A stretch of DNA of 64,000 nucleotides from Alphaproteobacteria bacterium (GCA_017533325.1 JAFXIF010000044.1:4345-68344); one strand, 5' to 3'; numbered from the stretch's first letter, positions 12,943 to 63,158 are shown. Notes: generated by a model not told the origin, from the sequence alone. A program made the numbers and translations.

Positions 12943-12943
12943 A

Positions 12944-16061: not shown

Positions 16062-16084
16062 ATATAAAGGCAAACTTATTTTTA

Positions 16085-17790: not shown

Positions 17791-17863
17791 CAACTCAGCC
17801 AACAAAAAACGCCCCTTTCGGAGCGTTCTTTTATTGGCTGGAGAAGTCTGGTAATACACGGAG
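17791..17863. repeat. Copy A of a ~70-90-nt terminator-containing repeat that is homologous to the tRNA-Gln 3' flank
   Basis: CAACTCAGCCAACAAAAAA, a hairpin, then TTCTTTTATTGGCTGGAGAAGTCTGGTAATACACGGA. The same architecture recurs at 19188-19282 and 20575-20645. Confidence 0.5.
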
Positions 17864-18038
17864 TATTATTATGTTGTATTGTTAAAAAATAATATAAATT
17901 CATCTTGACAAGATAAGATTTTTATAAAAACATATTGATATAATTAGGTTGATTTATTTTTGTTTTGTTGTCTATTTATCTGTATTTAAAAGAATTTTTA
18001 GTTAATTGATTTTTACTGGGAGTAAAGAAGGGTTTCAA

Positions 18039-18644: not shown

Positions 18645-18722
18645 TCTGTATATACAAATAGTTATCATTTTGTTGTTGATTTGGTATATTGTGTTAAATA
18701 TAGTATACTAAAGGAGCAAAAA

Positions 18723-19151: not shown

Positions 19152-19187
19152 ATGCATTATGCTTGCTTATTAAAGGAATAACATATT

Positions 19188-19282
19188 CTGCTTGTTGCTC
19201 AAATTCCTTTAGTTTAGTCAACAAAAAAAACTCCACAAGGGAGGTTCTTTTATTGGCTAGAGAAGTCTGATAATACACGGAA
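19188..19282. repeat. Copy B of the tRNA-Gln-flank repeat
   Basis: TTGTTGCTCAAATTCCTTTAGTTTAGTCAACAAAAAAAA, hairpin CTCCACAAGGGAGG, then TTCTTTTATTGGCTAGAGAAGTCTGATAATACACGGA. It aligns with copy C over ~80 nt. Confidence 0.5.
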
Positions 19283-19343
19283 TGATTTTAATATTGAAAC
19301 CATTTAAAAATAATGCTAAAGTTTAACACAAAGGAGTTTAAAA

Positions 19344-48344: not shown

Positions 48345-48360
48345 TCTTTATCATCCTTTT

Positions 48361-51300
48361 TTAAAACAATCTGTCAGAGGAGCCTGTTTTTGGTAGAACA
48401 GGTGTTACTTTTCTTTCCTCTACAGGTTGTTTTTCAACGCTGTCCCCAGTATAAATCGGTTCATTTGAATCTTCGTCAGAAGAGCCATCTTCATTATTAT
48501 ATTTGTCAGATGGTTTATAGTATTTACTATCATCAACTTCAGAGTTTTCGTCCTCATTAGTTTCTTCGTCTGATTCTTCCTCTTCTTCTTCGGATTTTTC
48601 TTCTTTAGATTCCTTTCGCGTGTCAACCCAAGAAGACGTATCCGGTGTTTGTGCTTCAGTTGAAACTTCTTCAGCTTCTTGGATGTCATCTTCTTCAGAT
48701 CTTAACCATAAATCTTCATTCGGGAAGACGGTTAAGCGCGTGCCTGACGGAACATAAATAACAACAGGAATATTTGCGGAATCTTCGATAAGTTGATCAA
48801 AGATTGTTTGCATAGATTCAATGAAGTTTTCTCTGGCATCATTTGCAGCTTCAGTTTTAGATGAAGTAATCGTGTTGCCATACATATCTTGATACATATC
48901 ATCATTTGTTGCCATCATGTAGGAAATAGCTGATGTAACAACGCTGGTCATAATCGGTTTACCGAATTTTTTAACCAATTCATCATCAAGATAAGCTGCA
49001 ACACCACCACGTCCTTGAGCATCACCTGATGTCCCTTCAAAGGAGAAAGCTCCTCCATCAGGACGGATAAGTCTTTGCCATGTGATTTCAAGTTTTGCCG
49101 CGCGTTTATCATTGCCTTGTTCACCGGCAAATGTTCCAATCAATCTGGAACCGGCCGGAATGATGATATTTCTTCCTTTTTCAGAATAAATATGTCTTTC
49201 AACAATGGCTGTAACAGGCATATCGGCATATCTGGAATCGATAGATCTTGTTAAGACTGCCGGAATTGCTTTGTCTTTCAAAATCATACGAGACATATCA
49301 ACAGGATAAGAAGATACAATTTTATTTACACCGATTGATTTCCAGTCCGCATCAGCTTTTTTACGAGCCATTGCTTTAATTTTTGAATTTGGTGTAATCA
49401 ATCCTCTTGATGCCATGCCGGCTTTCATTCCTTCTCGTTTTTGAGAAAGAATTTCTTGCATTTGTTGAATTTGTTCCGGTGTCGGTTTCAATTTTTTATC
49501 TGCAAAATTCGGACGAATACGACCTTGATCGTCACCTTGAGTGCTTAAGGGGCGTCCATCTAAAGTCATTGGTCTGCCATCTTGCATAAAGCCGACAATT
49601 TCATTTTGGTCATCTAAAATAGAACCATCCGGTGTAACTTGATATAATTTATTTCCGAATGAAATACGGCGTGTTCCGGCTTGTCCGGCTCCTCCTTGTG
49701 CATTTCTTAATGCTTCTAATTCTTCTTCAGAAAGTCCTTTAATACCACATTTATCCAAGCGAAGATCAAGGCCTTTAATTTTACCCATATCATTACCATC
49801 TTTATCTTTCAATAATCCGTTTTCATGAATGGTTGCATAGATTTCGCCATTCAACCCGATAATGGAGCCGTTTGGCATAATAGAAGCAATTTTTTCATTT
49901 TGAAGATTTAAAACATCACAACCTGAAATTTTTCCGAATGTATTTCCGTTGGCATCTACAAGTAGTCCGCTTTCAATATCACTTGGTAATTCGCCGTTTT
50001 CGCCGAGTTGTCCGATAACATTGCCATTTTCATCAACAATGTCTCCGTTTGGTAAAACCTGAGCAATAAATTTTCCTTCTGCATCTTTGATAACACCCTC
50101 AGAAGATAATGTCCCTTTAATATTACCTTTTTCGTCAAACAATAACTCTTCGTCACGGGAAACATTACGACCGATGATTTCACCTTTTTCGTTAACAACG
50201 TTGCCATCTGCGCGTAATACACCGATTTTTTCTCCGTTTTTGTTTACAACGTCCCCATTTAATTTAATTCGGCCGATTGGTTTTCCGTCTTTACCTAAAA
50301 CAAGCCCGCGTTCATGTGTTGCACCGATAACTTCGCCGGTTTTATGATCAACAACAGAACCGTCATTTCGGCTACATCCGATATTGATTCCGTTAACATC
50401 AACCACAGTTGAGTCCGGCATTGTGCGTCCGATATATTTTCCTTCAGGCGACATAACGATACCATTTCTTGTTACGCGACCGATTTTTTCACCTGAAGCA
50501 TTAACCGCCCATTTATCCGGTAAAATACGGCCAACAACCGTTCCTTTTGCATCAATAACTTGACCATTAAAAGCAGCTTGACCGACAACTTTACAATCAT
50601 TTGTAATTAATGCAGAAGGGATTAAGGCCCCTGTAATTTTATAAGTTCCTTCTTTAACCGTTCCATTAACGGCAATTTTCCCTTTTAATCCTCCGTTTGG
50701 AGAAACAATTTGCCCATTATGAATCAATGTCCCCATGAAAGAACCATCTTGTGAAATGGCAGTATAGAACGGCAAAACTGCACCGGCTAACGGTTCATCT
50801 TTGCCTAAAATAGTTCCGTCATCCAAAATGCGTAATGTTTTGCTGTCTGTTGCATCCAAAATATCACCGGAAAGAGTTGTTCGACCCAAAACATCCCCGC
50901 GATATCCAAACGGTAATCCTTGTTGGACAAGGCCACCTTTTTGAGGCATTGTGTTATATAAAGAACGATCTTGGATATCCGCAACAGAACCATCACTAAG
51001 CGCTCTTCCCGTCATTTGATTTGCATTGCCGATAACAGCGCCATCTGCAGCAACAGTTCCAAGAATTTTTGCATCATCATCAACAGCTACACCAAATGGA
51101 GCTTTTCCACCAGCCCAAAGATTATCGGAGGTGAGTGCAAAACCAAGAGGTGTTTGAACGGCAATGTTTCTTTCATCTTGATTAAAGATGGTTGCAGCAG
51201 TTTGTGTTTGACCGATTAAAAGGCCTGATTTCCCGACAAAAGCAGAAACAGGTAACGTCATACCACGAATATTGCCTTTTTCATTATAAAGGGCTCTGAT

Positions 51301-54300
51301 ACCTGAAGTGGAAGATTCTTTTTTACCTCTTAAGAAAATTGTTCCACTTAAGCTTTCGCGACCAACCGTGTTTAATGCATTTGATACAGCCGGTCCTGAG
51401 TAAACAACATTTCCTTGGATTTGTTTAATTAAGTTTGTTGCAAATCCGTTTGTCATTACCGAACCGAGAGGTTTTGAATTTCCGATGGATAAAATACTTC
51501 CGTTTGTTGAAATGATTCCCATTGTTTTGGCCGTGCTGTTTTCCGCAACAAATAAATCTTTGTCAGCCAATCTGGCAATAAAGTTCCCATCTTTTGCAAC
51601 AGTTTGCGGTGCAATGACTAAACCTTTTACTTGTCCTTTCCCATCAATAGCTTCACCGTATTCATTGATGAGATAAGAAAATTGATTATTGTCACCATAT
51701 CCGACTGAATTTAATGGGATAAATGTGCCTGTTATATCTCCCTTTGCATTTGCAATTCGGTTGTCAGATAATACATGGCCTAATTGTGATTTTGAAAGTC
51801 CGATGCGTCCGTCAGATTGAAGCAGTCCGGCAAACTTTCCGTTATTATCCACAGCAATCCCTTGTGGCAAAACTCTTCCGATTACTTCATCCATGTTATT
51901 GTAAATATAGTCTGAAGCATAAAGATAACCGGTATCTTTTTCAGCTGTAATGGTGTTATTAATTGACATGTAGCCGAGTAATTTTCCATTTGGTTTAACT
52001 GCAATACCAGTTTTTACAAGATAACCGATTTGATTCCCGGCTTTATCCAGACCAATTCCATTTGACATTAATCTTCCGATAGATCTTGAATTTTTGCCGT
52101 ATAAATCTGCATCAAAACTTGTCCATCCAATTAATTCATTCTTTGTATCAACATAAACGCCGAATGGAATCATTCTTCCGATAACGCCTTCAGAATTGAT
52201 AACCAATCCAAATGGGGTTGCTTGTCCGGCAATATTCCCATTTTTATCCATTATAGCCCCTGTTACACTTGGATAACCGATTAATTCTTCCGGAGAAAAA
52301 GCAAGGCTTAAGCGTTTAAAAACACCCCCGATAATTTTTTCATCAGATGAAATGGCAATCCCGTTTGCAAGAATTTTGCCGATAACTGTTTTCTTTGGTG
52401 AAATCACTTCGCCTTTAGGTGTAACCGAGCCGATTTCTTTACCTAAAACAGATAAAACTTTTCCATGAGGCATTTCAAAACCGATTACTTTTCCGTCCTT
52501 ATCCGTAACGGTTTTATTTGCTCTGATTGCCCCGATAATATCTCCGTCAGCATTCTTTAATGTGCCATCAACACCCATAGTGCCAAGATAATTATTATCT
52601 AAATCAAGAAAGGCTGTTTTATCAGGAATGAGAGTTCCGATAATTTTTTGAGTTTCACCGCTTATAGCAGTTAAATTTGGTAAAACACGGGCAAATCTTT
52701 CTCCTTCTTGATTCAATGCAAATCCGATTTTTGAATTGTAACGACCAAGAATCATACCATCTTGAGAAACGATAACTCCATCAGGTGGGATAACACCTAA
52801 AAATTTTCCGTTTGATGCAGAAACAATACCATCTTGGTCAACAGTGCCGATTTCATTTCCGTGGGCGTCATAAACTTTATCACCCATAACGGTCCAACCG
52901 GTCGGATTTCCGTTATCATCTAAAACAACTCCGTTAGGTGTATTTTGATTTCCGGATCCGACAACAGTTCCCAAAATTTCTTTACCATTTAAAGAAATAA
53001 CAGATCCATCTTCTTGAAGACATCCGATAATCTTTCCTTTTAAATCCATAACTTTACCATCAAGGCGCACACGACCGATAACAACACCTTCATTGTTTTT
53101 GACAACACCTTTGATAGCTAAAGCACCGATAATTTTTCCATTGTTATCAACAACAGTTTTATCCGGTGTTATACAACCAAACGGTTCATTATTCGCATCT
53201 GTTAAATCACCACCAATTGTGACAAGCCCTAATAAACGACATCCGTCAGCAATGGCAGAGGCTCTTGGAACAACAACACCGATAATGCGGTTTTGATCAT
53301 TTCGAACATAACTGTCCGTCATCACTTTGCCAACTTGTTCAAGTGAATCGTTAATGGCAATCCCGTTTGGGAAAACAGACCCGACTTGTTGACACCCAAA
53401 TCCGATGACGCGACCTTTTGGTAAAACAGAACCCACAGTCTTTTTACCAGCTGTTACAGATCCGTCCGGATTGACACAACCGATAACTGCTCCTTGGGGA
53501 CCAACGGCTTTACCTTCTGAATTTATAAATCCGATTGGATTGCCTTTTTCATTAATAACAAGCCCTAATTGAATAGCGCCGCCAATGTCCGTGCCGTCAT
53601 TGTTAATAACGCTTCCGTCAATTAATGTTTTTCCGACAGTTTGATTATATGAATCACGAACTTCACCATTTTGCATGATTTTGCCGGTTAATTGACATCC
53701 CGGAGCAACGGCAACCCCTTGAGGAATAGTTCCGCCAATAAGATCATTTGTGCTATTCACAACTAATCCGTTTGGTTTAACCATACCGATAACATTATTT
53801 GCTGCATCCATAACTGAACCGTCCGGAACAATTCCACCGATAACGTTACCTGTTAAATCGGCAACCAAACCCCATGGTCTTAAAACCCCTACTACACGGT
53901 TATTCAAATTGGCAACGGCACCGTTTGAAAGCGGTTTACCGATAACGGCACCTTTTTCATTTACAATTGTTCCGTCTTTTAATAATTTTCCGATTACATT
54001 TCCTGTCATATCCATAACCGAAACAATTGGGATGGCAGCCCCTAAAACATTTAATTCGGTATCAACAATGGTGTCATCTCCTAACAACCGACCGAGTTTG
54101 TCCCCATTTTCGTTAATTACATCACCATTTGGAGCAATTTTTCCCATGACCTCATTTTTTAAGTTAAGAGGTAATTTTTCGGGAACGGCAATAGCAACGA
54201 TTTTACCGTCTTTGTTGATATATAATCCGTTTTCAGTTGGTTTTATGACTTCACCGTCAATAACAATGGAGCCGTCTTCACCAACCGGATGCAATTTTCC

Positions 54301-54984
54301 ATCTAATCCCATTGCATATTTTTGTTCTTTTTCAGCATCATCCTTTGAAACTGATTCGCAAATAACACAATCTTTTGAATCGGTTGATTGAGCTTTTACT
54401 TGAACGGTTGTTTTCTTTTCTCTGTCAGAAAAACCGGCGGCAGTTGCAGAATCTTCTTCCCATTGAATAGTCAAAACATTTTGGATTTGTCTTAAAGAAA
54501 CAGGATTCCATAAAACTTTAATCAAGCATTCTTGCCCACTTGCCAAAGATTCATTTTCTTTACAAGTTGTTTCCATTGAAAATCCGTCTTGTTGATTTTC
54601 AAGAAATGTTGCCCCCTTGTAAAGAACAGCTCCGTTTTCGGCAGTTAATTTAATCAGCGCTTCGACTTGTGAACCGATAACAACATTATTCATATCAATT
54701 TGTTCAGGGACAACTTTTAAAGTAACATCCCCTCTGGCAAATCCTTGAAATTGACCGCCTTGTTCGTCTTTTTGGGTTTGGTATTCATCACCCCAGTCAA
54801 TATTTGTTGTTGTGTCTTGAACGGGCGCTTTTTCAGAGATAAAGGAAAGCGCTACAAAAAATACAATAAGAAGAAACAAACCGCCGAATAAAAGTTTCCT
54901 GTTGCTTTTTTTTACATATTGCTCACTAGAGCTTAATCCTCTGTTTTCTTTCATTGCTAACCCATTTCTTTTCTGTCGGAACAA
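48361..54984 (-). CDS. virB10: Giant VirB10-family protein (CagY-like) with a ~1700-aa degenerate repeat region
   Basis: 2207 aa. N-terminal cytoplasmic segment and single TM, then >100 degenerate ~12-13-aa repeats (xDGxVxDxxGxxIGxV), a C-terminal VirB10/TrbI domain (IPAGSRLIGTFAGEQ…VVIYVPSGTRLTVF), and an acidic Ser/Glu/Asp tail. Confidence 0.7.
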   Translation of the reverse strand: MFRQKRNGLAMKENRGLSSSEQYVKKSNRKLLFGGLFLLIVFFVALSFISEKAPVQDTTTNIDWGDEYQTQKDEQGGQFQGFARGDVTLKVVPEQIDMNNVVIGSQVEALIKLTAENGAVLYKGATFLENQQDGFSMETTCKENESLASGQECLIKVLWNPVSLRQIQNVLTIQWEEDSATAAGFSDREKKTTVQVKAQSTDSKDCVICESVSKDDAEKEQKYAMGLDGKLHPVGEDGSIVIDGEVIKPTENGLYINKDGKIVAIAVPEKLPLNLKNEVMGKIAPNGDVINENGDKLGRLLGDDTIVDTELNVLGAAIPIVSVMDMTGNVIGKLLKDGTIVNEKGAVIGKPLSNGAVANLNNRVVGVLRPWGLVADLTGNVIGGIVPDGSVMDAANNVIGMVKPNGLVVNSTNDLIGGTIPQGVAVAPGCQLTGKIMQNGEVRDSYNQTVGKTLIDGSVINNDGTDIGGAIQLGLVINEKGNPIGFINSEGKAVGPQGAVIGCVNPDGSVTAGKKTVGSVLPKGRVIGFGCQQVGSVFPNGIAINDSLEQVGKVMTDSYVRNDQNRIIGVVVPRASAIADGCRLLGLVTIGGDLTDANNEPFGCITPDKTVVDNNGKIIGALAIKGVVKNNEGVVIGRVRLDGKVMDLKGKIIGCLQEDGSVISLNGKEILGTVVGSGNQNTPNGVVLDDNGNPTGWTVMGDKVYDAHGNEIGTVDQDGIVSASNGKFLGVIPPDGVIVSQDGMILGRYNSKIGFALNQEGERFARVLPNLTAISGETQKIIGTLIPDKTAFLDLDNNYLGTMGVDGTLKNADGDIIGAIRANKTVTDKDGKVIGFEMPHGKVLSVLGKEIGSVTPKGEVISPKKTVIGKILANGIAISSDEKIIGGVFKRLSLAFSPEELIGYPSVTGAIMDKNGNIAGQATPFGLVINSEGVIGRMIPFGVYVDTKNELIGWTSFDADLYGKNSRSIGRLMSNGIGLDKAGNQIGYLVKTGIAVKPNGKLLGYMSINNTITAEKDTGYLYASDYIYNNMDEVIGRVLPQGIAVDNNGKFAGLLQSDGRIGLSKSQLGHVLSDNRIANAKGDITGTFIPLNSVGYGDNNQFSYLINEYGEAIDGKGQVKGLVIAPQTVAKDGNFIARLADKDLFVAENSTAKTMGIISTNGSILSIGNSKPLGSVMTNGFATNLIKQIQGNVVYSGPAVSNALNTVGRESLSGTIFLRGKKESSTSGIRALYNEKGNIRGMTLPVSAFVGKSGLLIGQTQTAATIFNQDERNIAVQTPLGFALTSDNLWAGGKAPFGVAVDDDAKILGTVAADGAVIGNANQMTGRALSDGSVADIQDRSLYNTMPQKGGLVQQGLPFGYRGDVLGRTTLSGDILDATDSKTLRILDDGTILGKDEPLAGAVLPFYTAISQDGSFMGTLIHNGQIVSPNGGLKGKIAVNGTVKEGTYKITGALIPSALITNDCKVVGQAAFNGQVIDAKGTVVGRILPDKWAVNASGEKIGRVTRNGIVMSPEGKYIGRTMPDSTVVDVNGINIGCSRNDGSVVDHKTGEVIGATHERGLVLGKDGKPIGRIKLNGDVVNKNGEKIGVLRADGNVVNEKGEIIGRNVSRDEELLFDEKGNIKGTLSSEGVIKDAEGKFIAQVLPNGDIVDENGNVIGQLGENGELPSDIESGLLVDANGNTFGKISGCDVLNLQNEKIASIMPNGSIIGLNGEIYATIHENGLLKDKDGNDMGKIKGLDLRLDKCGIKGLSEEELEALRNAQGGAGQAGTRRISFGNKLYQVTPDGSILDDQNEIVGFMQDGRPMTLDGRPLSTQGDDQGRIRPNFADKKLKPTPEQIQQMQEILSQKREGMKAGMASRGLITPNSKIKAMARKKADADWKSIGVNKIVSSYPVDMSRMILKDKAIPAVLTRSIDSRYADMPVTAIVERHIYSEKGRNIIIPAGSRLIGTFAGEQGNDKRAAKLEITWQRLIRPDGGAFSFEGTSGDAQGRGGVAAYLDDELVKKFGKPIMTSVVTSAISYMMATNDDMYQDMYGNTITSSKTEAANDARENFIESMQTIFDQLIEDSANIPVVIYVPSGTRLTVFPNEDLWLRSEEDDIQEAEEVSTEAQTPDTSSWVDTRKESKEEKSEEEEEESDEETNEDENSEVDDSKYYKPSDKYNNEDGSSDEDSNEPIYTGDSVEKQPVEERKVTPVLPKTGSSDRLF

Positions 54985-55009
54985 ATATTTAAATGATTTT
55001 CAAAGAAGT

Positions 55010-56788
55010 TTATTGAACGCGAACAACTGAACATCCAAAGCCGCGACGGCCTAATCTTTTGCATAATTTGTCGGCCAAAGTGATATCCTTAATCGGACCG
55101 ACACGCAAACGGAATAATTCGCGCATATTACTGTCTGCTGTTGTATCAACAGAATAATATGGTTCATATCCTTTTAAAACATCAGAGTTCTTTTCAAGAA
55201 TTTTTTCCCAAATGCTTTCAAGTTCTGTAATGTCAGCGTGTGTGCCAAGTTCAATCGAAATGGTTTCGCTTGTTGCCAAACCGGAATTTCTTTGAGTTGA
55301 AATCGGCATTTGACTCATAACCCCAACAATACCTGCAGAGGCTTGAGGTGAATTCATAACATTTGCCGGAATAGATTGGATTGGAGCCATATCGCCAGAA
55401 TAAATTGATCCGCCTTGCGGTGCATATTGAGGAATATAGTTTCCTGCATAGGAATCATAAATCATTCCTTGAGGATACATATTGTTTGATTGTTGCGTAT
55501 ATGAATTTTGTTGATAAGAATTCATCATTTTTGGTGTTGGAGCTAACGGACTTCTTTCAACAATTTTTTCGCTTTCTGTTTCACTCATTGCAGTCGGATC
55601 ATAAGCCGGAGCATCTTGGCTCATAACACTCGGGCGACCTGTATAAGGTGAAACAGTCATATTTTCAGCACCACTGTAATCTGTATATTCAAGACCGGCG
55701 CTTGGATCTCTTCTGAGTTTTAAGCAAATAAGTTTTTTGCCGTTTCTTAAAACCAAATCACCAATAGCTTCAACAACAATTAAACGACTGTTTGGCCCGG
55801 TTGTTCTAAATCCGACCGGAACTTCCGTATCTTGAACCAAAAGGCTGACCACCGGACGTTGTGTCATCGTTAATGCTTTCGGGCCCAAGTCAATGTATGT
55901 GAAAATATTATCGCGCCATACATTATCCGGAGCAATATCAACATCAGATGGATTTGGAATATAAATATCTATGTCAAAACGAATGTTTTCAGGGTCAACC
56001 GGAATGCTTTGCAACCAGTTTTTAGGGCCGGTTGAAGCTGTATTAATGCCTAATTGCGGATTTTGTCCGCCACTTCTACCGATTGCCCAACCGGGAGCTT
56101 TGTTGGAATTTAAAAATCCGTTACCGACAGCTCTGTTTGTGGCGCCGTTCATTCCGCCTAAACGTCCACCATTTTCAACCGGTGTATATCTCGGGCCAAC
56201 TAACACGTCAACAACAGATTGTGAAATTTTTTCGGCATTGTAAGTTTCGCTTCTTAAATAGAAAACATATCGGTTGCCGGATCTACCAAAAATAATCATA
56301 TTACTGTCAACCCCGATATAAGAGGGATCAGCATATAAAAGAAGAGAGTTTGGTGCGGCAATTTCACCACCAAATGATTCCGGAGAACCGATATGAACTT
56401 TTTCAATTAATTCCCATGTCGGTAAGTTGATAAGTGTCATCATACCTTCTCTTAAACGAATGGGTAAAATCACATCAGGTGACCAAGCGTATTTTGAATA
56501 CCCCGGTTTTGATTGACCTTCACCTAAATGTGCCATCGGATCGTTCCATGCTTTTTGTTGCATGCCGAGTGAATGTAAGTAATTTGGGTTAACAGATTCA
56601 TAATCGCCGTTTGTTTGAGCGATAGCGTCGCTTAAACGTTCACTTTCAGCATCTGTAGGCAACCCCTCTGAATGTGCAACAACAGAAAATAAAACAAAAA
56701 TAGCAGCCGTTGACAGCCAACCTTGTCTGTGAAGTTTTTGTTTGAACATAGAATCTCTCCTCTTTATTTTTGTAATATATTTACACAA
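55010..56788 (-). CDS. virB9: VirB9-like (CagX-like) T4SS protein with a C-terminal SPOR-like peptidoglycan-binding domain
   Basis: 592 aa with a signal peptide. Sits between virB8 and virB10. The C-terminal 70 aa (FRLRVGPIKDITLADKLCKRLGRRGFGCSVVRV) resembles a SPOR domain, preceded by a Q/Y/P-rich linker. The VirB9 call rests mainly on position and size. Confidence 0.5.
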   Translation of the reverse strand: MCKYITKIKRRDSMFKQKLHRQGWLSTAAIFVLFSVVAHSEGLPTDAESERLSDAIAQTNGDYESVNPNYLHSLGMQQKAWNDPMAHLGEGQSKPGYSKYAWSPDVILPIRLREGMMTLINLPTWELIEKVHIGSPESFGGEIAAPNSLLLYADPSYIGVDSNMIIFGRSGNRYVFYLRSETYNAEKISQSVVDVLVGPRYTPVENGGRLGGMNGATNRAVGNGFLNSNKAPGWAIGRSGGQNPQLGINTASTGPKNWLQSIPVDPENIRFDIDIYIPNPSDVDIAPDNVWRDNIFTYIDLGPKALTMTQRPVVSLLVQDTEVPVGFRTTGPNSRLIVVEAIGDLVLRNGKKLICLKLRRDPSAGLEYTDYSGAENMTVSPYTGRPSVMSQDAPAYDPTAMSETESEKIVERSPLAPTPKMMNSYQQNSYTQQSNNMYPQGMIYDSYAGNYIPQYAPQGGSIYSGDMAPIQSIPANVMNSPQASAGIVGVMSQMPISTQRNSGLATSETISIELGTHADITELESIWEKILEKNSDVLKGYEPYYSVDTTADSNMRELFRLRVGPIKDITLADKLCKRLGRRGFGCSVVRVQ

Positions 56789-56905
56789 TAAAACAAAAAT
56801 ATTTAAAAAGTCTACAAAAAAATGAAAAAAGATGTAATTTTAATGGAAAAATTTTTTTTAGAGTTTTTTGTGAGTGTTTTTAGAGGAGTTTTTTTAAAAA
56901 AATTA

Positions 56906-57604
56906 TTATGAATCAGCTTTTTTTATCACGAGCTGAATAACTGTAAATCCAAGTGGGTTTTTAAGTCTTTCTTCCCAAGTTAATCCTTCACGAACGGGTT
57001 TGAAAGCAACATTCATTGTGACAACCCATCTTGATTTTTTCGGTTCGCTGGATAAGTGTTTCATTTCCGTAAATTCAACTTCTGCACGCCAAATGTTTTC
57101 ATTCTTGTTGGTGCGATAAGGATTAACAACTAAAATTTTGACATTACGGGTTAATCCTTCTTCTTTTGCTTGTTGGATCCAATCTTCGGCATATTCAGTA
57201 AATTTTGTATAGACCGTAGGTTCGCTCATCCAGTTAATTTCCCCATCAATTCCGGTTCGTCTTTCTAATTCTTGAATGTTTGAACCGATATTAAAATAGG
57301 AGAGCAAATATTGTCTGATAAAGGACTCAGTCAATGTTTGCATATTCATTTGACTAAAATTAGGTCGAACAACATTAACAACTTGTTCGTTTTTATTAAG
57401 TGTTGTTAAAAAAAATGGTTGAACTCTGACAATAGGCATTAAAGATGTAAGAGCAGTGATAAGCATAATAGTTGTTAAAGTTGAAACAACTAAAACAAGC
57501 GCAAACGTTCGCGCCATCCAAAGATAACGTCTTTCTTTAACGGCTTCTTCTGATAAATCTTGTCCTTGTTTTTTTTGTTGGACTTTTTGATTGCTCATTG
57601 TCAT
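56906..57604 (-). CDS. virB8: VirB8 (paralogue a)
   Basis: 232 aa. Cytoplasmic N-terminus, single TM, periplasmic NTF2-like domain pattern (ERRYLWMARTFALVLVVSTL…). Confidence 0.65.
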   Translation of the reverse strand: MTMSNQKVQQKKQGQDLSEEAVKERRYLWMARTFALVLVVSTLTTIMLITALTSLMPIVRVQPFFLTTLNKNEQVVNVVRPNFSQMNMQTLTESFIRQYLLSYFNIGSNIQELERRTGIDGEINWMSEPTVYTKFTEYAEDWIQQAKEEGLTRNVKILVVNPYRTNKNENIWRAEVEFTEMKHLSSEPKKSRWVVTMNVAFKPVREGLTWEERLKNPLGFTVIQLVIKKADS

Positions 57605-57622
57605 AAGAATAAATATTTCTTG

Positions 57623-57814
57623 TTAAGATAACCAATCCGGAAGAGCAGGGGCTTTTTCAAGTTCAAGGCATGCACAAGGTGATTTTTTTAATTCAGAATA
57701 ATCCGGACCGATTCCAACAGGTTCTTTTTCATAAACACTACCGCAAGCTGCAGCCAAAACGGTCAATCCTAAAACAAATAAAACAACAAAATATTTTTTC
57801 ATTTTTTTCCTCAT
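57623..57814 (-). CDS. VirB7-like small lipoprotein
   Basis: 63 aa with lipobox LAAACGS. Located between the two virB8 paralogues, as in rvh clusters. Confidence 0.45.
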   Translation of the reverse strand: MRKKMKKYFVVLFVLGLTVLAAACGSVYEKEPVGIGPDYSELKKSPCACLELEKAPALPDWLS

Positions 57815-57891
57815 ATTTTTGTGAATTACAAACTCAGTTTATCGAAAGAAAAATAATTAATCAACCAAAAAAAACATTATTTTAAAATATT

Positions 57892-58590
57892 TTATTTTTT
57901 GACAGCTTCATCATATTTTTGTATGTAAAAACCAAAAGGGTTGGCAAAGGTTCGTGAATAAATGTGTCTGTTTGGATAATGCCCGACGGTGATTGTTGCC
58001 ACCCGCTGTTGAACGCGCGGTTTAACAATCGGGTCATAAGGATTATAAATAAAAACATCAAATTCAATGGTATATGTATTACCAAGTTTTGAGATATTTG
58101 TGATTTCAACACTTTGGGTTTCTTTTGCCGTAGAAATTTGTTTAATCTTTTCTTGTATGTTTTTTGAAAATTTAGCATAAACAGCCGGGGAAGATAGCCG
58201 TCTGATTTCTCCGCGAGCTCCCCATCTGGATGTCATTTCATTTTTATCCGCAAAATAAGAAACTCTTCTGTCAATATAATATCTGATTAACATTTCATCT
58301 AACAATTCACGATTAGCCCGATTACTGTGAGATTTTGAATCCATTAATCTATTTGCCGGTAAAGTATCGATTTGGATGTGATCTAACGTATTCATGGGAG
58401 AGGGTAAAATTTGAGCAATCACTTTTAATTTTGGCGCCATTTGAACCAATGTTAAAACAATGAACAAGTTAATAGCAATGGAAATAGCCGTCAATGTCAT
58501 CCAAAATTTTGCCCAATAAAGTGCAAATTTTCCTCGAGTTTTTTGGTCCTTGATAAAATAAGAAAGCACTAAAGACCTCCTTCTAAACAT
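57892..58590 (-). CDS. VirB8 (paralogue b)
   Basis: 232 aa with the same topology as VirB8a (KFALYWAKFWMTLTAISIAINLFIVL…). Confidence 0.55.
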   Translation of the reverse strand: MFRRRSLVLSYFIKDQKTRGKFALYWAKFWMTLTAISIAINLFIVLTLVQMAPKLKVIAQILPSPMNTLDHIQIDTLPANRLMDSKSHSNRANRELLDEMLIRYYIDRRVSYFADKNEMTSRWGARGEIRRLSSPAVYAKFSKNIQEKIKQISTAKETQSVEITNISKLGNTYTIEFDVFIYNPYDPIVKPRVQQRVATITVGHYPNRHIYSRTFANPFGFYIQKYDEAVKK

Positions 58591-60122
58591 CTTTTGTTTA
58601 TTTTTGTGTTATATGCTTTTTTGATGTCTTCCTTGTTCTTTTTTTCAAGTTCTTCATAAAGGGCATTTTCTGCTTGTTTTTCTTTTAATAAATGGTCTAT
58701 TTCTTGAGCATTTATAACCGTAAAATTAACACTGCCGTTGATGTCTTTTTCAAGTGCATTAACATAATTAAAATCCTGATAGGCTTGAGAAAAATACATG
58801 ATATGTTTAAGCTGTCTGTATTCTTCAGAATCTTTTTCAAGCGAATCAAGAGCATTTAATTGCTCAATATAAGACATTTTTAAATAAGTTTTAAATGAGT
58901 CCGGCTTATTTTTTGTATCCCCAATATCGGAATGTTTTTTTGTTATTTTATCTCGAACAGTTTGAATGTTTTTGCTTTTAAGTTGTAATAATTCTTCTTC
59001 TAAACGACTAACAGATTCAATATTATCAGCTTCAATAGCTGTTTGAATGCCAAGATCTTTTAGTCTGCTGTTTAATTCGTTAACAGCGGAAGATTTAGCA
59101 TTACTTGTAACGTTTAATGTATTTTCTGCACTTGTTTTTTCTTTTTTTATTGCTTGATAAACATTTAATCTGTTGTTTTGTTGGCTGGCGTCCATATGTC
59201 TCATGTCTTCATTTAAGACCAAGCTTTTGGGCAAAAATGTTTTTGCCATTTCACCATTTTCATTATATGTGTTAAATCCGCTTTGAATAAATTTTTGCCA
59301 GGGTTGAGGCCATTGAGGAAAAACAGATTTTGATTTTGCAGGATCTTCAGTAAACCACATAATTTCATGAGCCGGCGGTAATGCTTTGGGTGGTTTGGGG
59401 AATGTTTTTTGTGTTTCTGATAATTTTTGAAGTTGATCCGGGGGCAATGATGATAAAAATGTTTTATAGGCCGATTCATTTTGTTCAAAATTATTTTCAG
59501 CAGTGATACCGTTTATTCGACCGGTTCTCCCTAAAATTTTATTTACATCTTGCAAAAAAGAGTTCACTTCGTCTGCATAGACATATTTTTGATCTTCCCA
59601 TAAATCAAAAGATTTCCCCTCTTTTAGTTTTCCATATTTCTCTGGATTTGCATAAACATCTGTTAAAACTTCTTTCCCTAAATACCAGTTGGCAAAAAGT
59701 TCTGTTTGTGCTTTTTTCCCTGTGTTTTTTTGTTGAGGCATACTGTTTAAAATATCAACTGTTAATTTGAGCTCTCTGTCATCATATTCTTGAGTGATAT
59801 TTTTCCAAGCCGTTTTGGGATCTTCATAGACATCGGAGAGCAAATTGATATTACATGCCTCCATTGAATTATATTTTTGATTTATTAAATCAACTTGAAG
59901 TTTTTCTTGCTCTTCTTCTTGGTATCGTTTTTTTAAATTTCTAACTTTAATTTGCATAGCATGCAGTTGTTCAAGATATATTATTTCTCTTGTATAATCA
60001 TCAGATTCAATGGCTTCTTCGGTTTCTTGAGAAGCAATTTCAATAGGAGCTGTTGCATGAGTAAAACTGATAAATGAAAAAAATGAAATACCTGATAATG
60101 CTAAAAATAAAAATGGTTTCAT
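58569..60122 (-). CDS. T4SS-associated secreted coiled-coil protein (517 aa from ATG 60122)
   Basis: Signal peptide MKPFLFLALSGISFFSFISFTHA. The start overlaps the upstream gene's stop in ATGA. The ORF track extends to 60161 with a TTG start. Confidence 0.45.
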   Translation of the reverse strand: MKPFLFLALSGISFFSFISFTHATAPIEIASQETEEAIESDDYTREIIYLEQLHAMQIKVRNLKKRYQEEEQEKLQVDLINQKYNSMEACNINLLSDVYEDPKTAWKNITQEYDDRELKLTVDILNSMPQQKNTGKKAQTELFANWYLGKEVLTDVYANPEKYGKLKEGKSFDLWEDQKYVYADEVNSFLQDVNKILGRTGRINGITAENNFEQNESAYKTFLSSLPPDQLQKLSETQKTFPKPPKALPPAHEIMWFTEDPAKSKSVFPQWPQPWQKFIQSGFNTYNENGEMAKTFLPKSLVLNEDMRHMDASQQNNRLNVYQAIKKEKTSAENTLNVTSNAKSSAVNELNSRLKDLGIQTAIEADNIESVSRLEEELLQLKSKNIQTVRDKITKKHSDIGDTKNKPDSFKTYLKMSYIEQLNALDSLEKDSEEYRQLKHIMYFSQAYQDFNYVNALEKDINGSVNFTVINAQEIDHLLKEKQAENALYEELEKKNKEDIKKAYNTKINKRCLEGGL

Positions 60123-60901
60123 TGTTGATTTTCCTCCGGCAACTCTTCTTTGGGGTTCCAATATGTTTTATGGCGTTTTGCAGTCGCAAGACCCAGAAGG
60201 GCATTGTATTGTAATTGTGCAGCTCTTAATTGTTTTTGAATCATGAGTAATTTTGCCCATGTAATTTTTGCAAAGGCAGTTGTCATTAAAAGTTTGGTTT
60301 TATTTTCATTGCTTTCCAATGCCCCTTGATTAGAAGCTTTTTTAGATGAATCATCAATTTTTGTTTCCATATCATCAATGATCTTAAATATTTCTTTTGT
60401 TTGGTGTTTTAATACCAATATTCTTGCTAATAACTGAAGATTGGCTTGTTGGCGTATATATTGTCTTTTTTTAACAAAATTATAATCCCCCTCATGATCG
60501 GCAAAAGGTTGATCCGCATAGACCTCCATATTGCTTTTCATAATATTTTTAATCGTTGATGTTGCAGGGTCAGCTCGTTTTACAACTATTTCTTTTGGGG
60601 GTGTTCCTTTGGGAACAAAATCGCCAGGGGAGGCGTTTAAAATATCTAAAATTGTTGTTGACCCGCCTTGAATTGTTGAAATCGTGTCATTTACAATGGC
60701 TGTTGCGCGTTCTGAATAATAATGGCCTTGTTTTAGTACTTCGGCTACTCCTCTTGAAGCAGTGTCAGTTACACTTCCGGGTTCCAAAATTGGCCCTCCG
60801 ACACCGGCAATCCAACAAGGGTCACACGGCAAACAAATAGAATAAGCCGATAAAGATGTTGAAAATGTTAATATAAAAAGAAGGGAAGAAATTATTTTCA
60901 T
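60119..60901 (-). CDS. T4SS-associated secreted protein (260 aa)
   Basis: Signal peptide, Cys-rich mature N-terminus (CLPCDPC). 4-nt overlaps on both sides. Confidence 0.4.
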   Translation of the reverse strand: MKIISSLLFILTFSTSLSAYSICLPCDPCWIAGVGGPILEPGSVTDTASRGVAEVLKQGHYYSERATAIVNDTISTIQGGSTTILDILNASPGDFVPKGTPPKEIVVKRADPATSTIKNIMKSNMEVYADQPFADHEGDYNFVKKRQYIRQQANLQLLARILVLKHQTKEIFKIIDDMETKIDDSSKKASNQGALESNENKTKLLMTTAFAKITWAKLLMIQKQLRAAQLQYNALLGLATAKRHKTYWNPKEELPEENQQ

Positions 60902-61614
60902 TTTTTATCTCCTTCAGTGTCTTCTGGCGCACCAATTTTTTTAAGTGTTAAAATAGTCGGTTGGTCTTTGATAAATTGTTGAACAACATCTACTTCCATT
61001 TGAACAATTTGCAAAATGATTTGCGAAGCAACCATTTTTATTTGAGCTTTAATATTTCGGTTGAGCATGGCATTGCTTTGTGTTTGATTACAACCTTTTC
61101 CGGAAGCAACTTGCATGGATTGCATGTCTTCAATAAAAAGAGGTCGAAGTTGCTGAGCAAGCGAGTAAGCTTCAGCTGCAACTTCTGAAGCAAAGTTAAC
61201 CCTATTTTGAAGTTTTGTTAGGGCAGATTCTTTATCCCCTTCTTGCAAAAAGAAGTTTTTTTTCAACATGTCCAAAGCTGTTTTATACTTTTCTTGTGGA
61301 GAAATATATGTTGATTCGAAAAGCTTCATAATATTTGCTTCTAAATAATCATAGGTCTTTGTTGTTATTTCTGTTTTTTTGTTTGAAGGTGCATTAGAGC
61401 AAGAGGCGTTTCCGGATCGAGTATTATTTGCGATCTCTTCTTGTGTAACAACTTCTGCGCCTAAACTTGTAGTCAGTTGTGTTGCAATATTACTGCCTGC
61501 AAGTAGAGGAATATTTTTTATATCAGTAACGAGGCATTGACTAAAGGCTGTATGACATAATAATCCAGCGGCTAAAAAAGAAGAAAACAGATGTATTTTA
61601 AAGTTTTTTTTCAT
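60898..61614 (-). CDS. Secreted alpha-helical protein, possible VirB5/TrbJ-like minor pilin paralogue (238 aa)
   Basis: Signal peptide, with size and helical/Q-rich character similar to VirB5. The assignment is an inference. Confidence 0.35.
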   Translation of the reverse strand: MKKNFKIHLFSSFLAAGLLCHTAFSQCLVTDIKNIPLLAGSNIATQLTTSLGAEVVTQEEIANNTRSGNASCSNAPSNKKTEITTKTYDYLEANIMKLFESTYISPQEKYKTALDMLKKNFFLQEGDKESALTKLQNRVNFASEVAAEAYSLAQQLRPLFIEDMQSMQVASGKGCNQTQSNAMLNRNIKAQIKMVASQIILQIVQMEVDVVQQFIKDQPTILTLKKIGAPEDTEGDKK

Positions 61615-61625
61615 TTTTTTCTCCT

Positions 61626-62384
61626 TTAATCTTCTTCAACGATTTTTCGTTGTTTATCTTGCATTAGTAATGTGCTGTTGATTTCTAAAATTGAGGATTC
61701 AATAACTAACAATTCATTAAGAAGAACAGCTATTTTTTTATCTAAAACCGATAATCCGTTTTCAAGGCTTTTGACATCTGTTCGGGCTTTTATATTGGAA
61801 GACATACTTTCTAATTCTTCTTTTTGTTTATCCATAAGAGCTAACACTTTATCAGCAATAGCTAATCCATGATGCAAAGAAACATATCGTTTATGCTGAA
61901 TAAATTCTTGGGTGTTAACATATTTTGCATCTTCAAATGGGTCAATTTTAACGATTGCATCACTTTCAAGGTCTATTTTATCTTTTTCATTTAGAGAATT
62001 TTGTGCTTGATAATCTACCAAATAAGTGCTTTTAACAATTTGATGGAGTTTAGAAAGATTGGGTTCCTCTTTTGTTGATTCTTGTAGAAACATTTGTGTA
62101 AAAGTTTCATCTGTATAAAAAGCAACATCATCGCCCGTTAAGAGCGGAGAGTTATCCGAAGTTATTATTTCATGTCTGATAACGCCGGGTTGACCATAAT
62201 TTTTGTTTGCAGCTTTTTGATACATGGCAATAAATTTTGCAATTGTTGCAGATAATCTTTGATACCCTGCTTGAACAGGTGCCAATGGAGCCATTAATAT
62301 GCTGGTTGTTACACCGGCTTGAACTGGTGTATTTAAACAGGAGAGAACGATAACTGTTAATAAGAATGATTTAAATTTCAACAT
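61626..62384 (-). CDS. Secreted alpha-helical protein, possible VirB5-like paralogue (252 aa)
   Basis: Signal peptide and predicted coiled-coil C-terminal half. Confidence 0.35.
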   Translation of the reverse strand: MLKFKSFLLTVIVLSCLNTPVQAGVTTSILMAPLAPVQAGYQRLSATIAKFIAMYQKAANKNYGQPGVIRHEIITSDNSPLLTGDDVAFYTDETFTQMFLQESTKEEPNLSKLHQIVKSTYLVDYQAQNSLNEKDKIDLESDAIVKIDPFEDAKYVNTQEFIQHKRYVSLHHGLAIADKVLALMDKQKEELESMSSNIKARTDVKSLENGLSVLDKKIAVLLNELLVIESSILEINSTLLMQDKQRKIVEED

Positions 62385-62393
62385 GTTATCCTC

Positions 62394-63158
62394 CTAATCA
62401 AAAAATGAACCAACAATTCCGCCGACAGCCTGTATGGCCATCCCACCAACCACGTCTTTAAAAGAGTTGTTAGTATCTGTAACGTAATCTGCAGAACTGA
62501 TGGCTGTCAGCATATTATTAGTGGCTGCTGTTAAAACAATTGCATTATAAATTTGAGCGGTACTCATTTTAACGCTGGTATTATTTGAAACAGTAGAAGA
62601 GTAATTTGTTGTTTTGTTTGTGGTATCAGACACTTGGTTATCAATATTTTTTTTGCCGCTTAAATTTCTAGAGGCCGCATTTTTATGAATGGCTGCTAAG
62701 GCGTATCCAAATGTTGCAACTTCAACCAAAGCTCTTTCTCTTTTATTTTGTGTTTCAGCACTGTTAATAATACCAGCTTCTTCGGCTCTGCTTTTCCCGT
62801 CTTCTGTTTGAGCCGGTAATAAGGTATTCTTGAAAAATTCACTTCCATTAATACCTTCAGGAATGGATTCAGTTGATTTTGCATCTTCAGAAGAAAGTGA
62901 TGCATTGACACCTTCGGAAGGTTTATTATTAGCTATAAATTCCAAAGAATCATTACTAAAATTGTTGCCAAGTTCTCTGTTTTTACTGGATGTTTCCAGT
63001 TGGGAATTATGTTTTTCATCCTCCGCATCTTTATCGGCATCTTTTTGAGCATTTTGACCACTCTTATATCCGCCACTGTCACTAATTGGAATGGCAAGGG
63101 CATTTTGAACGGCAAAAGAAAAGAAGACTAAAAGAAAAATAAAAACTAATTTTTTCAT
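62394..63158 (-). CDS. Secreted protein with C-terminal glycine-zipper segment (254 aa)
   Basis: Signal peptide, S/T/N-rich middle region, C-terminal VVGGMAIQAVGGIVGSFFD. Confidence 0.35.
   Translation of the reverse strand: MKKLVFIFLLVFFSFAVQNALAIPISDSGGYKSGQNAQKDADKDAEDEKHNSQLETSSKNRELGNNFSNDSLEFIANNKPSEGVNASLSSEDAKSTESIPEGINGSEFFKNTLLPAQTEDGKSRAEEAGIINSAETQNKRERALVEVATFGYALAAIHKNAASRNLSGKKNIDNQVSDTTNKTTNYSSTVSNNTSVKMSTAQIYNAIVLTAATNNMLTAISSADYVTDTNNSFKDVVGGMAIQAVGGIVGSFFD

What the first reader, a model, noticed from the sequence alone, without database searches (positions are those of the whole stretch)
55010..56788. VirB9-like protein fused to a C-terminal SPOR-type peptidoglycan-binding domain
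The 592-aa protein in the virB9 position ends with a Q/Y/P-rich linker and a ~70-aa segment matching the SPOR fold pattern (FRLRVGPIKDITLADKLCKRLGRRGFGCSVVRV). Anchoring the outer-membrane ring component of a T4SS to septal or denuded peptidoglycan is not a described feature of VirB9.
Basis: partly seen in the sequence, partly recalled or inferred. Interest (0 to 1): 0.55.

Follow-up and report, generated by a model that had tools for sequence, protein, structure and literature searches.

The report
VirB9 secretion-channel protein with cell-wall-binding tail
A gut alphaproteobacterium's type IV secretion system has an outer-membrane ring protein (VirB9) carrying a flexible tether ending in a SPOR-type cell-wall-binding domain. 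This conserved but undescribed fusion probably ties the machine to the peptidoglycan.

Summary
The minus-strand gene at 55010..56749 most likely starts at the ATG at 56749, giving 579 aa rather than the 592-aa TTG ORF. It lies in the order virB8, virB7-like, virB8, virB9, virB10, virB11. It passes the Pfam gathering cut-offs for both CagX/VirB9 and SPOR.

The last 86 aa fold with high confidence as beta-alpha-beta-beta-alpha-beta. Their best solved-structure matches are the SPOR domains of CwlC and RlpA. A variable, low-complexity linker of 76-166 aa joins this domain to the VirB9 core.

The fusion is present in at least 80 species-level genomes of uncultured gut Alphaproteobacteria. A strongly diverged version of the same C-terminal module occurs in more distant VirB9 proteins, including a plasmid T4SS of cultured Microvirga.

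The Leu-x-Arg-x-Arg strand that binds glycan in RlpA is kept. The key SPOR glutamine is an almost invariant glutamate.

The most likely function is a multivalent tether from the outer-membrane core complex to peptide-free glycan strands, possibly also a septum/pole installation cue. I found no paper describing it. Verdict: real, a new variant of known kinds, of moderate interest.

The parts
55010..56749 (-). virB9-SPOR gene (579 aa plus stop). The listed 592-aa ORF begins 39 nt upstream at a TTG (56788).
   Evidence: A GAGGAG Shine-Dalgarno lies before the ATG at 56749.
56669..56749 (-). Sec-type signal peptide, aa 1-27 (MFKQKLHRQGWLSTAAIFVLFSVVAHS|EG).
   Evidence: Read directly from the sequence. 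The cleavage site is inferred; no predictor was run.
56465..56668 (-). Conserved N-terminal region, aa 28-95, containing the invariant GEGQ.KP.YS.Y.W.P motif. Most of it lies upstream of the Pfam CagX match.
   Evidence: Alignment A1; mean pairwise identity 0.66.
55721..56497 (-). VirB9/CagX core, aa 85-343. It comprises the N-terminal beta-domain (about aa 96-190), a Gly/Asn-rich inter-domain loop (aa 191-244, 56018..56179) and the C-terminal domain with invariant C342.
   Evidence: Pfam PF03524, 47.3 bits against a cut-off of 34.2. Identity is 0.80 in the N-terminal domain and 0.76 in the C-terminal domain.
55271..55681 (-). Low-complexity tether, aa 357-493 (rich in S, P, A, Q, Y, M). It holds a semi-conserved MAPxQxIPxxVxxSPxA motif near aa 455-475.
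   Evidence: Identity 0.23 and length 76-166 aa among relatives. pLDDT below 50 in the full-length model.
55013..55270 (-). SPOR-type domain, aa 494-579 (beta-alpha-beta-beta-alpha-beta). E500 replaces the canonical Gln. L545-x-R547-x-R549 forms the basic strand. C563 and C573 are invariant.
   Evidence: Pfam PF05036. AF2 pLDDT 87.4. Foldseek top hits 1x60, 6i09 and 6i05. Residue counts.
57623..57814 (-). VirB7-like small lipoprotein (63 aa, lipobox LAAAC|G, conserved SPCAC motif). It is the likely partner of the VirB9 C-terminal domain.
   Evidence: ORF list. Conserved at the same relative position in at least 60 related loci. The partner role is inferred.
56906..57604 (-). virB8 copy 1 (232 aa).
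   Evidence: Pfam VirB8, 54.5 bits.
57892..58590 (-). virB8 copy 2 (232 aa), 24% identical to copy 1.
   Evidence: Pfam VirB8, 36.4 bits; BLASTP.
48361..54984 (-). Giant virB10 (2207 aa). Beta-flower repeats lie between the N-terminal membrane segment and the C-terminal TrbI/VirB10 domain.
   Evidence: Pfam Bflower_2 (14 stretches), Bflower, DUF3659 and TrbI. NCBIfam T4SS_VirB10 domain.
47355..48344 (-). virB11-type ATPase (329 aa).
   Evidence: Pfam T2SSE, 67.5 bits.

Best explanation
The gene encodes the VirB9 subunit of a chromosomal, vertically inherited VirB-type (type IVA) secretion system.

Proposed sequence of events:
1. After Sec export, the VirB9 core assembles with the VirB7-like lipoprotein and VirB10 into the outer-membrane core complex.
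2. From the end of the VirB9 C-terminal domain, an unstructured tether of about 135 residues leads to an 86-residue SPOR-type domain stabilised by a Cys563-Cys573 pair.
3. That domain binds the glycan backbone of peptidoglycan where stem peptides have been removed by amidases.

A core complex holds about 14 VirB9 copies, a number taken from other T4SSs. The result would be a multivalent, flexible tie between the outer-membrane ring and the sacculus.

Denuded glycan is made mainly at the division septum. The same domain could therefore also bias where VirB9 accumulates and the machine is installed, at the septum and later the new pole.

Shown here: the domain architecture, the fold, purifying selection on the domain against a free-drifting linker, and the gene context. 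Inferred: peptidoglycan binding, the ligand, the stoichiometry and any localisation effect.
For: - CagX and SPOR both score above the Pfam gathering cut-offs, and SPOR is hit in 27 of 27 diverse relatives.
- The AF2 model of the last 90 aa has pLDDT 87.4 and beta-alpha-beta-beta-alpha-beta topology.
- The best PDB matches are the SPOR domains of CwlC and of RlpA bound to denuded glycan, probability 1.0 and TM 0.64-0.73. The next folds score TM 0.46 or less.
- The domain keeps a constant length (84-86 aa) and 60% mean identity, while the linker varies from 76 to 166 aa at 23% identity.
- The beta3 strand L545-x-R547-x-R549 matches RlpA L307, R309 and R311. These form the hydrophobic contact and the basic patch for the MurNAc carboxylate (PMC6895207). 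R549 is kept in 152 of 153 members, and hhalign places R547 on FtsN R285.
- Two invariant cysteines (153 of 153) fit an oxidising periplasmic location.
- Gene order is virB8, virB7-like, virB8, virB9, virB10, virB11, and it is conserved in related genomes.
- The genome makes peptidoglycan and the SPOR ligand: alanine racemase and an AmiC-type amidase with an AMIN domain lie in the same window.
- There are precedents for wall-binding modules on envelope machines: PilQ AMIN domains (10.1101/087965) and the OmpA-like DotK and Dis1 in Dot/Icm (PMC9302130).
Against: - No binding or localisation data exist for any member.
- The Gln that contacts the lactyl carboxylate and N-acetyl groups (RlpA Q270, FtsN Q251) is Glu in 150 of 153 members. 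The aromatic residue after the G-[AS] motif (RlpA F274) is not kept. Canonical denuded-glycan binding is therefore not assured.
- Pfam aligns only the second half of the SPOR model (positions 28-76).
- A profile search of PDB sequences gives only E = 0.088 to CwlC.
- The full-length model is poor (pLDDT 44), so the position of the VirB9 C-terminus relative to the wall is taken from other T4SS structures, not tested here.
- Mapping E500 onto Q251/Q270 rests on sequence pattern and predicted strand, not on a superposition.
Confidence: 0.62

Rival explanations
1. The domain is mainly a targeting device rather than a static anchor. SPOR-tagged VirB9 monomers are captured by the transient denuded glycan at the division septum. 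The T4SS is then built into the nascent pole without needing a dedicated VirB1-type lytic transglycosylase, as proposed for PilQ AMIN domains and type IVa pili.
For: - SPOR domains characteristically localise proteins to the septum (PMC6895207).
- The PilQ AMIN pre-installation model is an established precedent (10.1101/087965).
- No SLT/VirB1-type domain was detected in any ORF of the 17-kb T4SS stretch 47355..63931.
- An AmiC-type amidase lies in the window.
Against: - The rest of the T4SS genes lie outside the window, so a VirB1 homologue cannot be excluded.
- The diverged form of the module also occurs in a plasmid conjugation-type locus in Microvirga, where polar installation has no obvious value.
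- The Gln-to-Glu change questions canonical septal glycan binding.
- There are no localisation data.
Confidence: 0.25
2. The module has the SPOR fold but a changed ligand. One option is a modified glycan, for example de-N-acetylated or otherwise positively charged sugars that a Glu could pair with. Another is a protein partner within the T4SS, such as the giant VirB10, VirB8 or the unknown secreted proteins encoded upstream.
For: - Glu replaces the conserved Gln almost invariantly (150 of 153).
- Further invariant acidic residues, D535 and E544, lie in the predicted beta2 and beta3 region.
- The N-terminal half is too diverged for Pfam to align.
- The wider family's C-termini keep little beyond the Cys pair.
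Against: The Arg-x-Arg strand that binds the MurNAc carboxylate in RlpA is strictly kept, which is hard to explain without a carboxylate-bearing glycan ligand. Most SPOR-glycan contacts are main-chain contacts (PMC6895207), so side-chain changes need not abolish binding.
Confidence: 0.12
3. The fusion is an artefact: an assembly or frameshift join of two genes, or a chance HMM match.
For: None found.
Against: The same single ORF, with a C-terminal domain of constant length, is found in 80 independent species-level assemblies and in more than 150 protein clusters. Both HMM hits exceed curated cut-offs. The fold prediction is confident.
Confidence: 0.01

Closest known systems
Canonical VirB9 / TraO (pKM101) / TrwF (R388) / CagX: the outer-membrane core-complex subunit of type IVA secretion systems
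   Same: - It matches the Pfam CagX domain with the usual two beta-domains.
- It has a signal peptide.
- The gene lies between virB8 and virB10.
- A small VirB7-like lipoprotein is encoded nearby.
- An invariant Cys in the C-terminal domain recalls the Agrobacterium VirB7-VirB9 disulfide (that comparison is from my own knowledge, not tested).
   Different: - It is about twice the usual length.
- It has an extra conserved N-terminal region, a Gly-rich inter-domain loop, a tether of about 135 aa and a C-terminal SPOR domain.
- It scores far below the TIGR02781 VirB9 equivalog cut-off, 28.9 against 217.7 bits.
SPOR-domain proteins: FtsN, DamX, DedD, RlpA, CwlC
   Same: - It has the same beta-alpha-beta-beta-alpha-beta fold.
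- It passes the Pfam SPOR cut-off.
- It keeps an RlpA-like L-x-R-x-R glycan-binding strand (PMC6895207).
- A disulfide is likely, as in FtsN, though at different positions.
   Different: - It is attached to a secretion-system ring subunit, not to a division protein or a wall hydrolase.
- Glu stands in place of the conserved Gln.
- The beta1-alpha1 half is too diverged for the Pfam model.
PilQ secretin AMIN domains (type IVa pilus)
   Same: A wall-binding module for septal peptidoglycan is fused, one per subunit, to the multimeric outer-membrane ring of an envelope-spanning machine. It has been shown to recruit the machine to future poles and is proposed to anchor it (10.1101/087965).
   Different: - The fold differs (AMIN, not SPOR).
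- The module is N-terminal rather than C-terminal.
- The ring protein is an unrelated secretin.
- The function has been shown for PilQ and is only inferred here.
DotK and Dis1 (Lpg0657) of the Legionella Dot/Icm type IVB system
   Same: These are peptidoglycan-binding-type modules that form part of a T4SS outer-membrane complex (PMC9302130).
   Different: - They carry OmpA-like domains, not SPOR.
- They are separate auxiliary lipoproteins, not fused to the VirB9 counterpart DotH.
- They belong to the type IVB lineage.
Rickettsiales vir homologue (rvh) T4SS arrangement
   Same: It is a chromosomal T4SS in an alphaproteobacterium with duplicated virB8 and a virB8-B9-B10-B11(-D4) block among housekeeping genes. 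A more distant relative has the full B8-B9-B10-B11-D4 block. The rvh comparison is from my own knowledge.
   Different: virD4 is not adjacent in this window, VirB10 is giant, and VirB9 carries a SPOR domain. Membership of the rvh lineage was not tested phylogenetically.

Membership tests
VirB9/TrbG/CagX family (Pfam PF03524) | Match to the family HMM above the curated threshold | tested here: met
   47.3 bits against a cut-off of 34.2, aa 98-356 of the 592-aa ORF. All 66 distant relatives scanned also match.
VirB9/TrbG/CagX family (Pfam PF03524) | Gene sits between virB8 and virB10 in a T4SS operon that includes virB11 | tested here: met
   VirB8 twice, TrbI/VirB10 and a T2SSE ATPase flank it on the same strand. 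The same order is seen in L073, L029, L081 and Microvirga L082.
VirB9/TrbG/CagX family (Pfam PF03524) | Exported protein with a partner VirB7 lipoprotein | tested here: inconclusive
   A signal-peptide-like N-terminus is read from the sequence. A conserved 63-aa lipoprotein is encoded between the two virB8 genes.
VirB9/TrbG/CagX family (Pfam PF03524) | Two beta-sandwich domains as in solved core complexes | tested here: inconclusive
   The full-length AF2 model has pLDDT 44. Beta-strands are predicted in both regions, but confidence is too low for a fold search.
P-type conjugative VirB9 equivalog (TIGR02781) | Score above the equivalog cut-off | tested here: not met
   28.9 bits against 217.7. 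It is a VirB9-family protein, not an equivalog of the P-type conjugation VirB9.
SPOR domain (Pfam PF05036) | Match to the family HMM above the curated threshold | tested here: met
   29.2 bits for the whole protein and 33.8 bits for the domain alone, against a cut-off of 21. 27 of 27 relatives match at E <= 0.01. Only model positions 28-76 align.
SPOR domain (Pfam PF05036) | Beta-alpha-beta-beta-alpha-beta fold with a four-stranded sheet backed by two helices | tested here: met
   AF2 pLDDT 87.4 with elements in that order. The three best Foldseek PDB matches are SPOR domains, TM 0.64-0.73.
SPOR domain (Pfam PF05036) | Conserved glycan-contact residues: Gln on beta1, Arg and a hydrophobic residue on beta3 | tested here: inconclusive
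   L545, R547 and R549 correspond to RlpA L307, R309 and R311 and are conserved. The Gln position is Glu in 150 of 153 members, and the F274 equivalent is variable (PMC6895207).
SPOR domain (Pfam PF05036) | Binds peptidoglycan glycan strands lacking stem peptides and localises to septa | not testable with these tools
   This needs sacculus pull-down or ITC with denuded glycans, and localisation of an exported fluorescent fusion.

The most novel reading that the evidence does not exclude
A whole subfamily of VirB-type secretion systems, from gut Alphaproteobacteria to a Microvirga plasmid, uses a SPOR-derived module on every VirB9 subunit to read the state of the cell wall. This would let the machine be installed at the division septum without a dedicated wall-cutting enzyme and then be inherited at the new pole. 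The invariant Glu in place of the SPOR Gln would mark a new glycan specificity within the SPOR fold.
Probability: 0.2. Interest if true: 0.65.

Novelty: new variant of a known kind. Interest (0 to 1): 0.45.

Why it matters
How large envelope-spanning machines get through the peptidoglycan, hold on to it, and end up at particular places in the cell is only partly understood for type IV secretion. The known answers are a VirB1 lytic transglycosylase and, in Dot/Icm, accessory OmpA-like proteins.

A wall-binding domain built into every copy of the outer-membrane ring subunit would be a third solution. It parallels the AMIN domains of the PilQ secretin.

The module's divergence also offers a natural series for asking which SPOR residues set ligand specificity. 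Its presence in cultured Microvirga makes the idea testable.

The host lineage is a widespread but uncultured group of gut Alphaproteobacteria. Its conserved chromosomal T4SS, with a 2207-aa VirB10, is itself undescribed as far as my searches went.

Tried and rejected
- **Full-length AF2 model.** Using a 28-sequence alignment it reached a mean pLDDT of 44. Only the SPOR part was confident, so the model was not used for a fold search.
- **Profile search of PDB sequences.** The SPOR alignment gave only a weak hit to CwlC, E 0.088. The profile of outgroup C-termini gave nothing meaningful.
- **A conclusion I revised.** From a family HMM and Pfam I first concluded that 66 more distant long VirB9 proteins lack the domain. 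Reading their C-termini showed a shared C-x(7-12)-C ending in 28 of them. Profile-profile comparison then linked 23 of these to the family SPOR profile, probability 95.7%, so I withdrew the first conclusion.
- **Iterated HMM search.** It converged after pulling in only 4 of the 66.
- **hhalign of the family profile against FtsN.** It aligned only the second half, probability 15%. The Gln/Glu correspondence therefore rests on pattern and predicted strand.
- **The six ORFs upstream of virB8.** BLASTP among them found no paralogy, and Pfam found no family.
- **Taxon names.** Cluster look-ups gave names only for Microvirga and 'Alphaproteobacteria bacterium'.
- **Literature.** A search for RF32 plus T4SS found nothing.

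Full report
**What is there.** The minus strand carries an ORF at 55010..56788 (592 aa from a TTG start). The true start is almost certainly the ATG at 56749. A GAGGAG Shine-Dalgarno lies 7 nt upstream, and every homologue begins at the equivalent MFKQK. This gives 579 aa, and all residue numbers below use that numbering. Against Pfam, the protein passes the curated cut-offs of both CagX/VirB9 (PF03524, 47.3 bits against 34.2) and SPOR (PF05036, 29.2 against 21). It does not reach the NCBIfam equivalog cut-off for P-type conjugative VirB9 (28.9 against 217.7). It is therefore a diverged member of the VirB9 family, not an equivalog.

**Gene context.** The same-strand neighbours are:
- two VirB8 genes (56906..57604 and 57892..58590), 24% identical to each other;
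- a 63-aa lipoprotein between them (57623..57814, lipobox LAAAC), which I read as the VirB7 counterpart and which is conserved in at least 60 related loci;
- a 2207-aa VirB10 (48361..54984) whose TrbI domain follows at least 14 beta-flower repeats;
- a VirB11-type ATPase (47355..48344).

The rest of the window is housekeeping: Rho, IleRS, RNase E, MipZ, HtpG, alanine racemase and an AmiC-type amidase with an AMIN domain. The T4SS is therefore chromosomal.

**Anatomy of the protein.** Reading the alignment of 34 relatives with per-region statistics gives seven parts:

| Part | Residues | Mean pairwise identity | Length among relatives |
|---|---|---|---|
| Signal peptide | 1-27 | not used | - |
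| Conserved N-terminal region | 28-95 | 0.66 | - |
| VirB9 N-terminal beta-domain | about 96-190 | 0.80 | - |
| Gly/Asn-rich loop | 191-244 | 0.38 | - |
| VirB9 C-terminal domain (invariant C342) | 245-356 | 0.76 | - |
| Tether, rich in S, P, A, Q, Y, M | 357-493 | 0.23 | 76-166 aa |
| C-terminal domain | 494-579 | 0.60 | 84-86 aa |

A folded domain under selection, held on a freely drifting linker, is the expected picture for a tethered binding module.

**Is the C-terminal domain a SPOR domain?**
- All 27 diverse C-termini tested hit PF05036 at E <= 0.01.
- AlphaFold2 on a 24-sequence alignment of the last 90 residues gave pLDDT 87.4 and the element order beta-alpha-beta-beta-alpha-beta.
- Foldseek against the PDB returned, as its three best matches, the SPOR domain of B. 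subtilis CwlC (1x60) and the P. aeruginosa RlpA SPOR domain with and without denuded glycan (6i09, 6i05). Probability was 1.0 and TM 0.64-0.73. The following hits were generic ferredoxin-like folds with TM 0.46 or less.

The fold assignment is therefore secure.

**Ligand site.** The RlpA-glycan crystal structure identifies Q270, R302, R309, R311, F274 and L307 as the side chains that matter. Mutagenesis of FtsN identifies Q251, S254, W283, R285 and I313 (PMC6895207). I confirmed the FtsN SPOR sequence against 1UTA.
- **Beta3 strand.** The strand E544-L545-F546-R547-L548-R549-V550-G551-P552 aligns without gaps on the GP motif, so that L545, R547 and R549 correspond to RlpA L307, R309 and R311. 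hhalign independently puts R547 on FtsN R285. Among 153 family members, R549 is kept in 152, R547 is R in 140 and H in 12, and L545 is aliphatic in nearly all.
- **Beta1 strand.** The position that pattern and predicted strand assign to the conserved Gln (I-E500-L-G-T against V-Q-C-G-S in FtsN) is Glu in 150, Asp in 2 and Gln in 1 of 153. The aromatic residue after G-[AS] is not kept. This is a real departure from the canonical site. I could not verify it by superposition and cannot explain it.
- **Cysteines.** C563 and C573 are invariant (153 of 153). This fits a disulfide in an oxidising periplasm.

**Distribution.**
- The protein search found more than 1300 relatives. The best 120 are all full length at 55-100% identity, named at most 'TrbG/VirB9 family' from 'Alphaproteobacteria bacterium' MAGs.
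- The scan of one genome per species returned 80 loci down to 40% identity. They come from gut MAGs of ruminants, yak, deer, rabbit and humans, with conserved synteny including a giant or split VirB10.
- An exhaustive profile search of 1.84 billion cluster representatives found 934 proteins at E <= 1e-3.
- A family-specific HMM recognised the C-terminal domain only in roughly the nearest 30 full-length representatives. Some of these have weak or sub-threshold Pfam SPOR scores. One (P0143) lies in a plain virB8-B9-B10(565 aa)-B11-D4 block.
- Sixty-six more distant long VirB9 proteins (380-630 aa) showed CagX but no SPOR with Pfam.
- However, 28 of those 66 end in the same C-x(7-12)-C-plus-short-tail signature. 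A profile of 23 of these C-termini aligns to the family SPOR profile over 75 columns, with hhalign probability 95.7% and E 9e-9.
- One such cluster belongs to cultured Microvirga species. In Microvirga sp. VF16 it lies on plasmid pMVF16-3, in a MobA/MobL - virB2 - virB3 ... virB8 - virB9 (550 aa) - virB10 - virB11 - virD4 locus.

The module thus appears older and wider than the gut clade, and the gut clade holds its best-preserved form. The link between the diverged forms and SPOR is transitive.

**How it most likely works.** The steps below are inferred unless marked.
- VirB9, VirB7 and VirB10 form the outer-membrane core complex in studied T4SSs (established knowledge; PMC9302130).
- The VirB9 C-terminal domain lies just under the outer membrane. 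A disordered tether of about 135 residues (pLDDT below 50) is long enough to reach the sacculus.
- SPOR domains bind glycan strands from which amidases have removed the peptides (PMC6895207), and an AmiC-type amidase is encoded in the window.
- With one module per VirB9 subunit, the ring would be tied to the wall multivalently.
- Denuded glycan is concentrated at the septum. The same module could therefore capture VirB9 at the division site and pre-install the machine at the new pole, as shown for the AMIN domains of PilQ (10.1101/087965).
- No SLT/VirB1-type domain was seen in the 17-kb T4SS stretch. This fits that idea, but the remaining T4SS genes lie outside the window.

My estimates are: peptidoglycan tether about 0.6, a targeting role about 0.25, a changed ligand or protein partner about 0.12, and artefact about 0.01.

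**Comparison with what is known.** The concept of a wall-binding module in a T4SS outer-membrane complex exists already: DotK and Dis1 in Dot/Icm have OmpA-like domains (PMC9302130). So does the concept of a wall-binding module fused to an outer-membrane ring subunit, namely PilQ AMIN. I did not find a SPOR domain on VirB9, or on any T4SS component. Searches for VirB9 plus 'SPOR domain' (0 papers), SPOR plus T4SS as whole words (21 papers, none relevant), VirB9 plus 'peptidoglycan-binding domain' and VirB9 plus 'sporulation-related' gave nothing. Automated annotations do record PF05036 together with PF03524 on many of these proteins, so the fusion is visible in databases but undescribed.

**Verdict.** This is a real, conserved feature and a new variant of known kinds: a VirB9 with a built-in SPOR-type wall-binding module. 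Interest is moderate. It gives a concrete, testable handle on how a type IVA system relates to the cell wall, with a cultured relative available. The function is inferred, and the ligand site departs from the canonical one.

Noticed in passing
window 48361..54984 (-): VirB10 is 2207 aa, about five times the usual size. At least 14 beta-flower repeats (PF21785, PF21784) and DUF3659 lie between the N-terminal membrane segment and the C-terminal TrbI domain, followed by an acidic Ser/Glu/Asp-rich tail of about 110 aa. In related genomes the same position holds two large ORFs: 1146 + 1496 aa in L073 and 589 + 1598 aa in L029.
   Followed up: partly
window 57623..57814 (-): A 63-aa lipoprotein (lipobox LAAAC, conserved YEKEPVGIG..YSELKKSPCAC motif) lies between the two virB8 genes. 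It is conserved at the same place in at least 60 related loci and is probably the VirB7 counterpart. Its CAC motif and the invariant C342 of VirB9 could form an inter-subunit disulfide.
   Followed up: partly
window 58569..63931 (-): Six consecutive ORFs lie upstream of virB8 (530, 260, 238, 252, 254 and 258 aa). Most have signal-peptide-like N-termini. None has a Pfam family, and BLASTP detects no similarity among them. A similar run of ORFs of comparable size precedes virB8 in L029. They may be T4SS-associated surface or pilus proteins or substrates.
   Followed up: partly
window 40080..41282 (+): An AmiC-type N-acetylmuramoyl-L-alanine amidase with an N-terminal AMIN domain. This is the enzyme class that produces the denuded glycan bound by SPOR domains. 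It is a housekeeping gene, about 14 kb from virB9.
   Followed up: no
window about 55320..55390 (-), aa about 455-475 of VirB9: Inside the otherwise unconserved tether there is a semi-conserved motif, MAPxQxIPxxVxxSPxAxxGI, in relatives above about 55% identity. Short helices are predicted there at low confidence. It may be a docking motif.
   Followed up: no
window 55250..55252 (-), codon of E500: An almost invariant Glu stands where SPOR domains have a highly conserved Gln that contacts the glycan (150 of 153 members). This is unexplained.
   Followed up: partly
L082 (Microvirga sp. VF16 plasmid pMVF16-3, NZ_CP069357.1:678511-680163): A cultured rhizobium-related bacterium carries a 550-aa VirB9 with a strongly diverged version of the C-terminal module, inside a complete relaxase-virB-virD4 locus on a 731-kb plasmid typed as non-mobilizable. 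It could serve as an experimental model.
   Followed up: partly
window 7808..11422 (+): A 1204-aa ORF with no Pfam match at E <= 1e-4.
   Followed up: no
window 48001..56000 compared with 1..20000: G+C content is 38-40% across virB10/virB9 and 28-31% in the first 20 kb of the window. GC skew is negative across the T4SS genes. This may reflect only strand and the Gly-rich repeat content.
   Followed up: no
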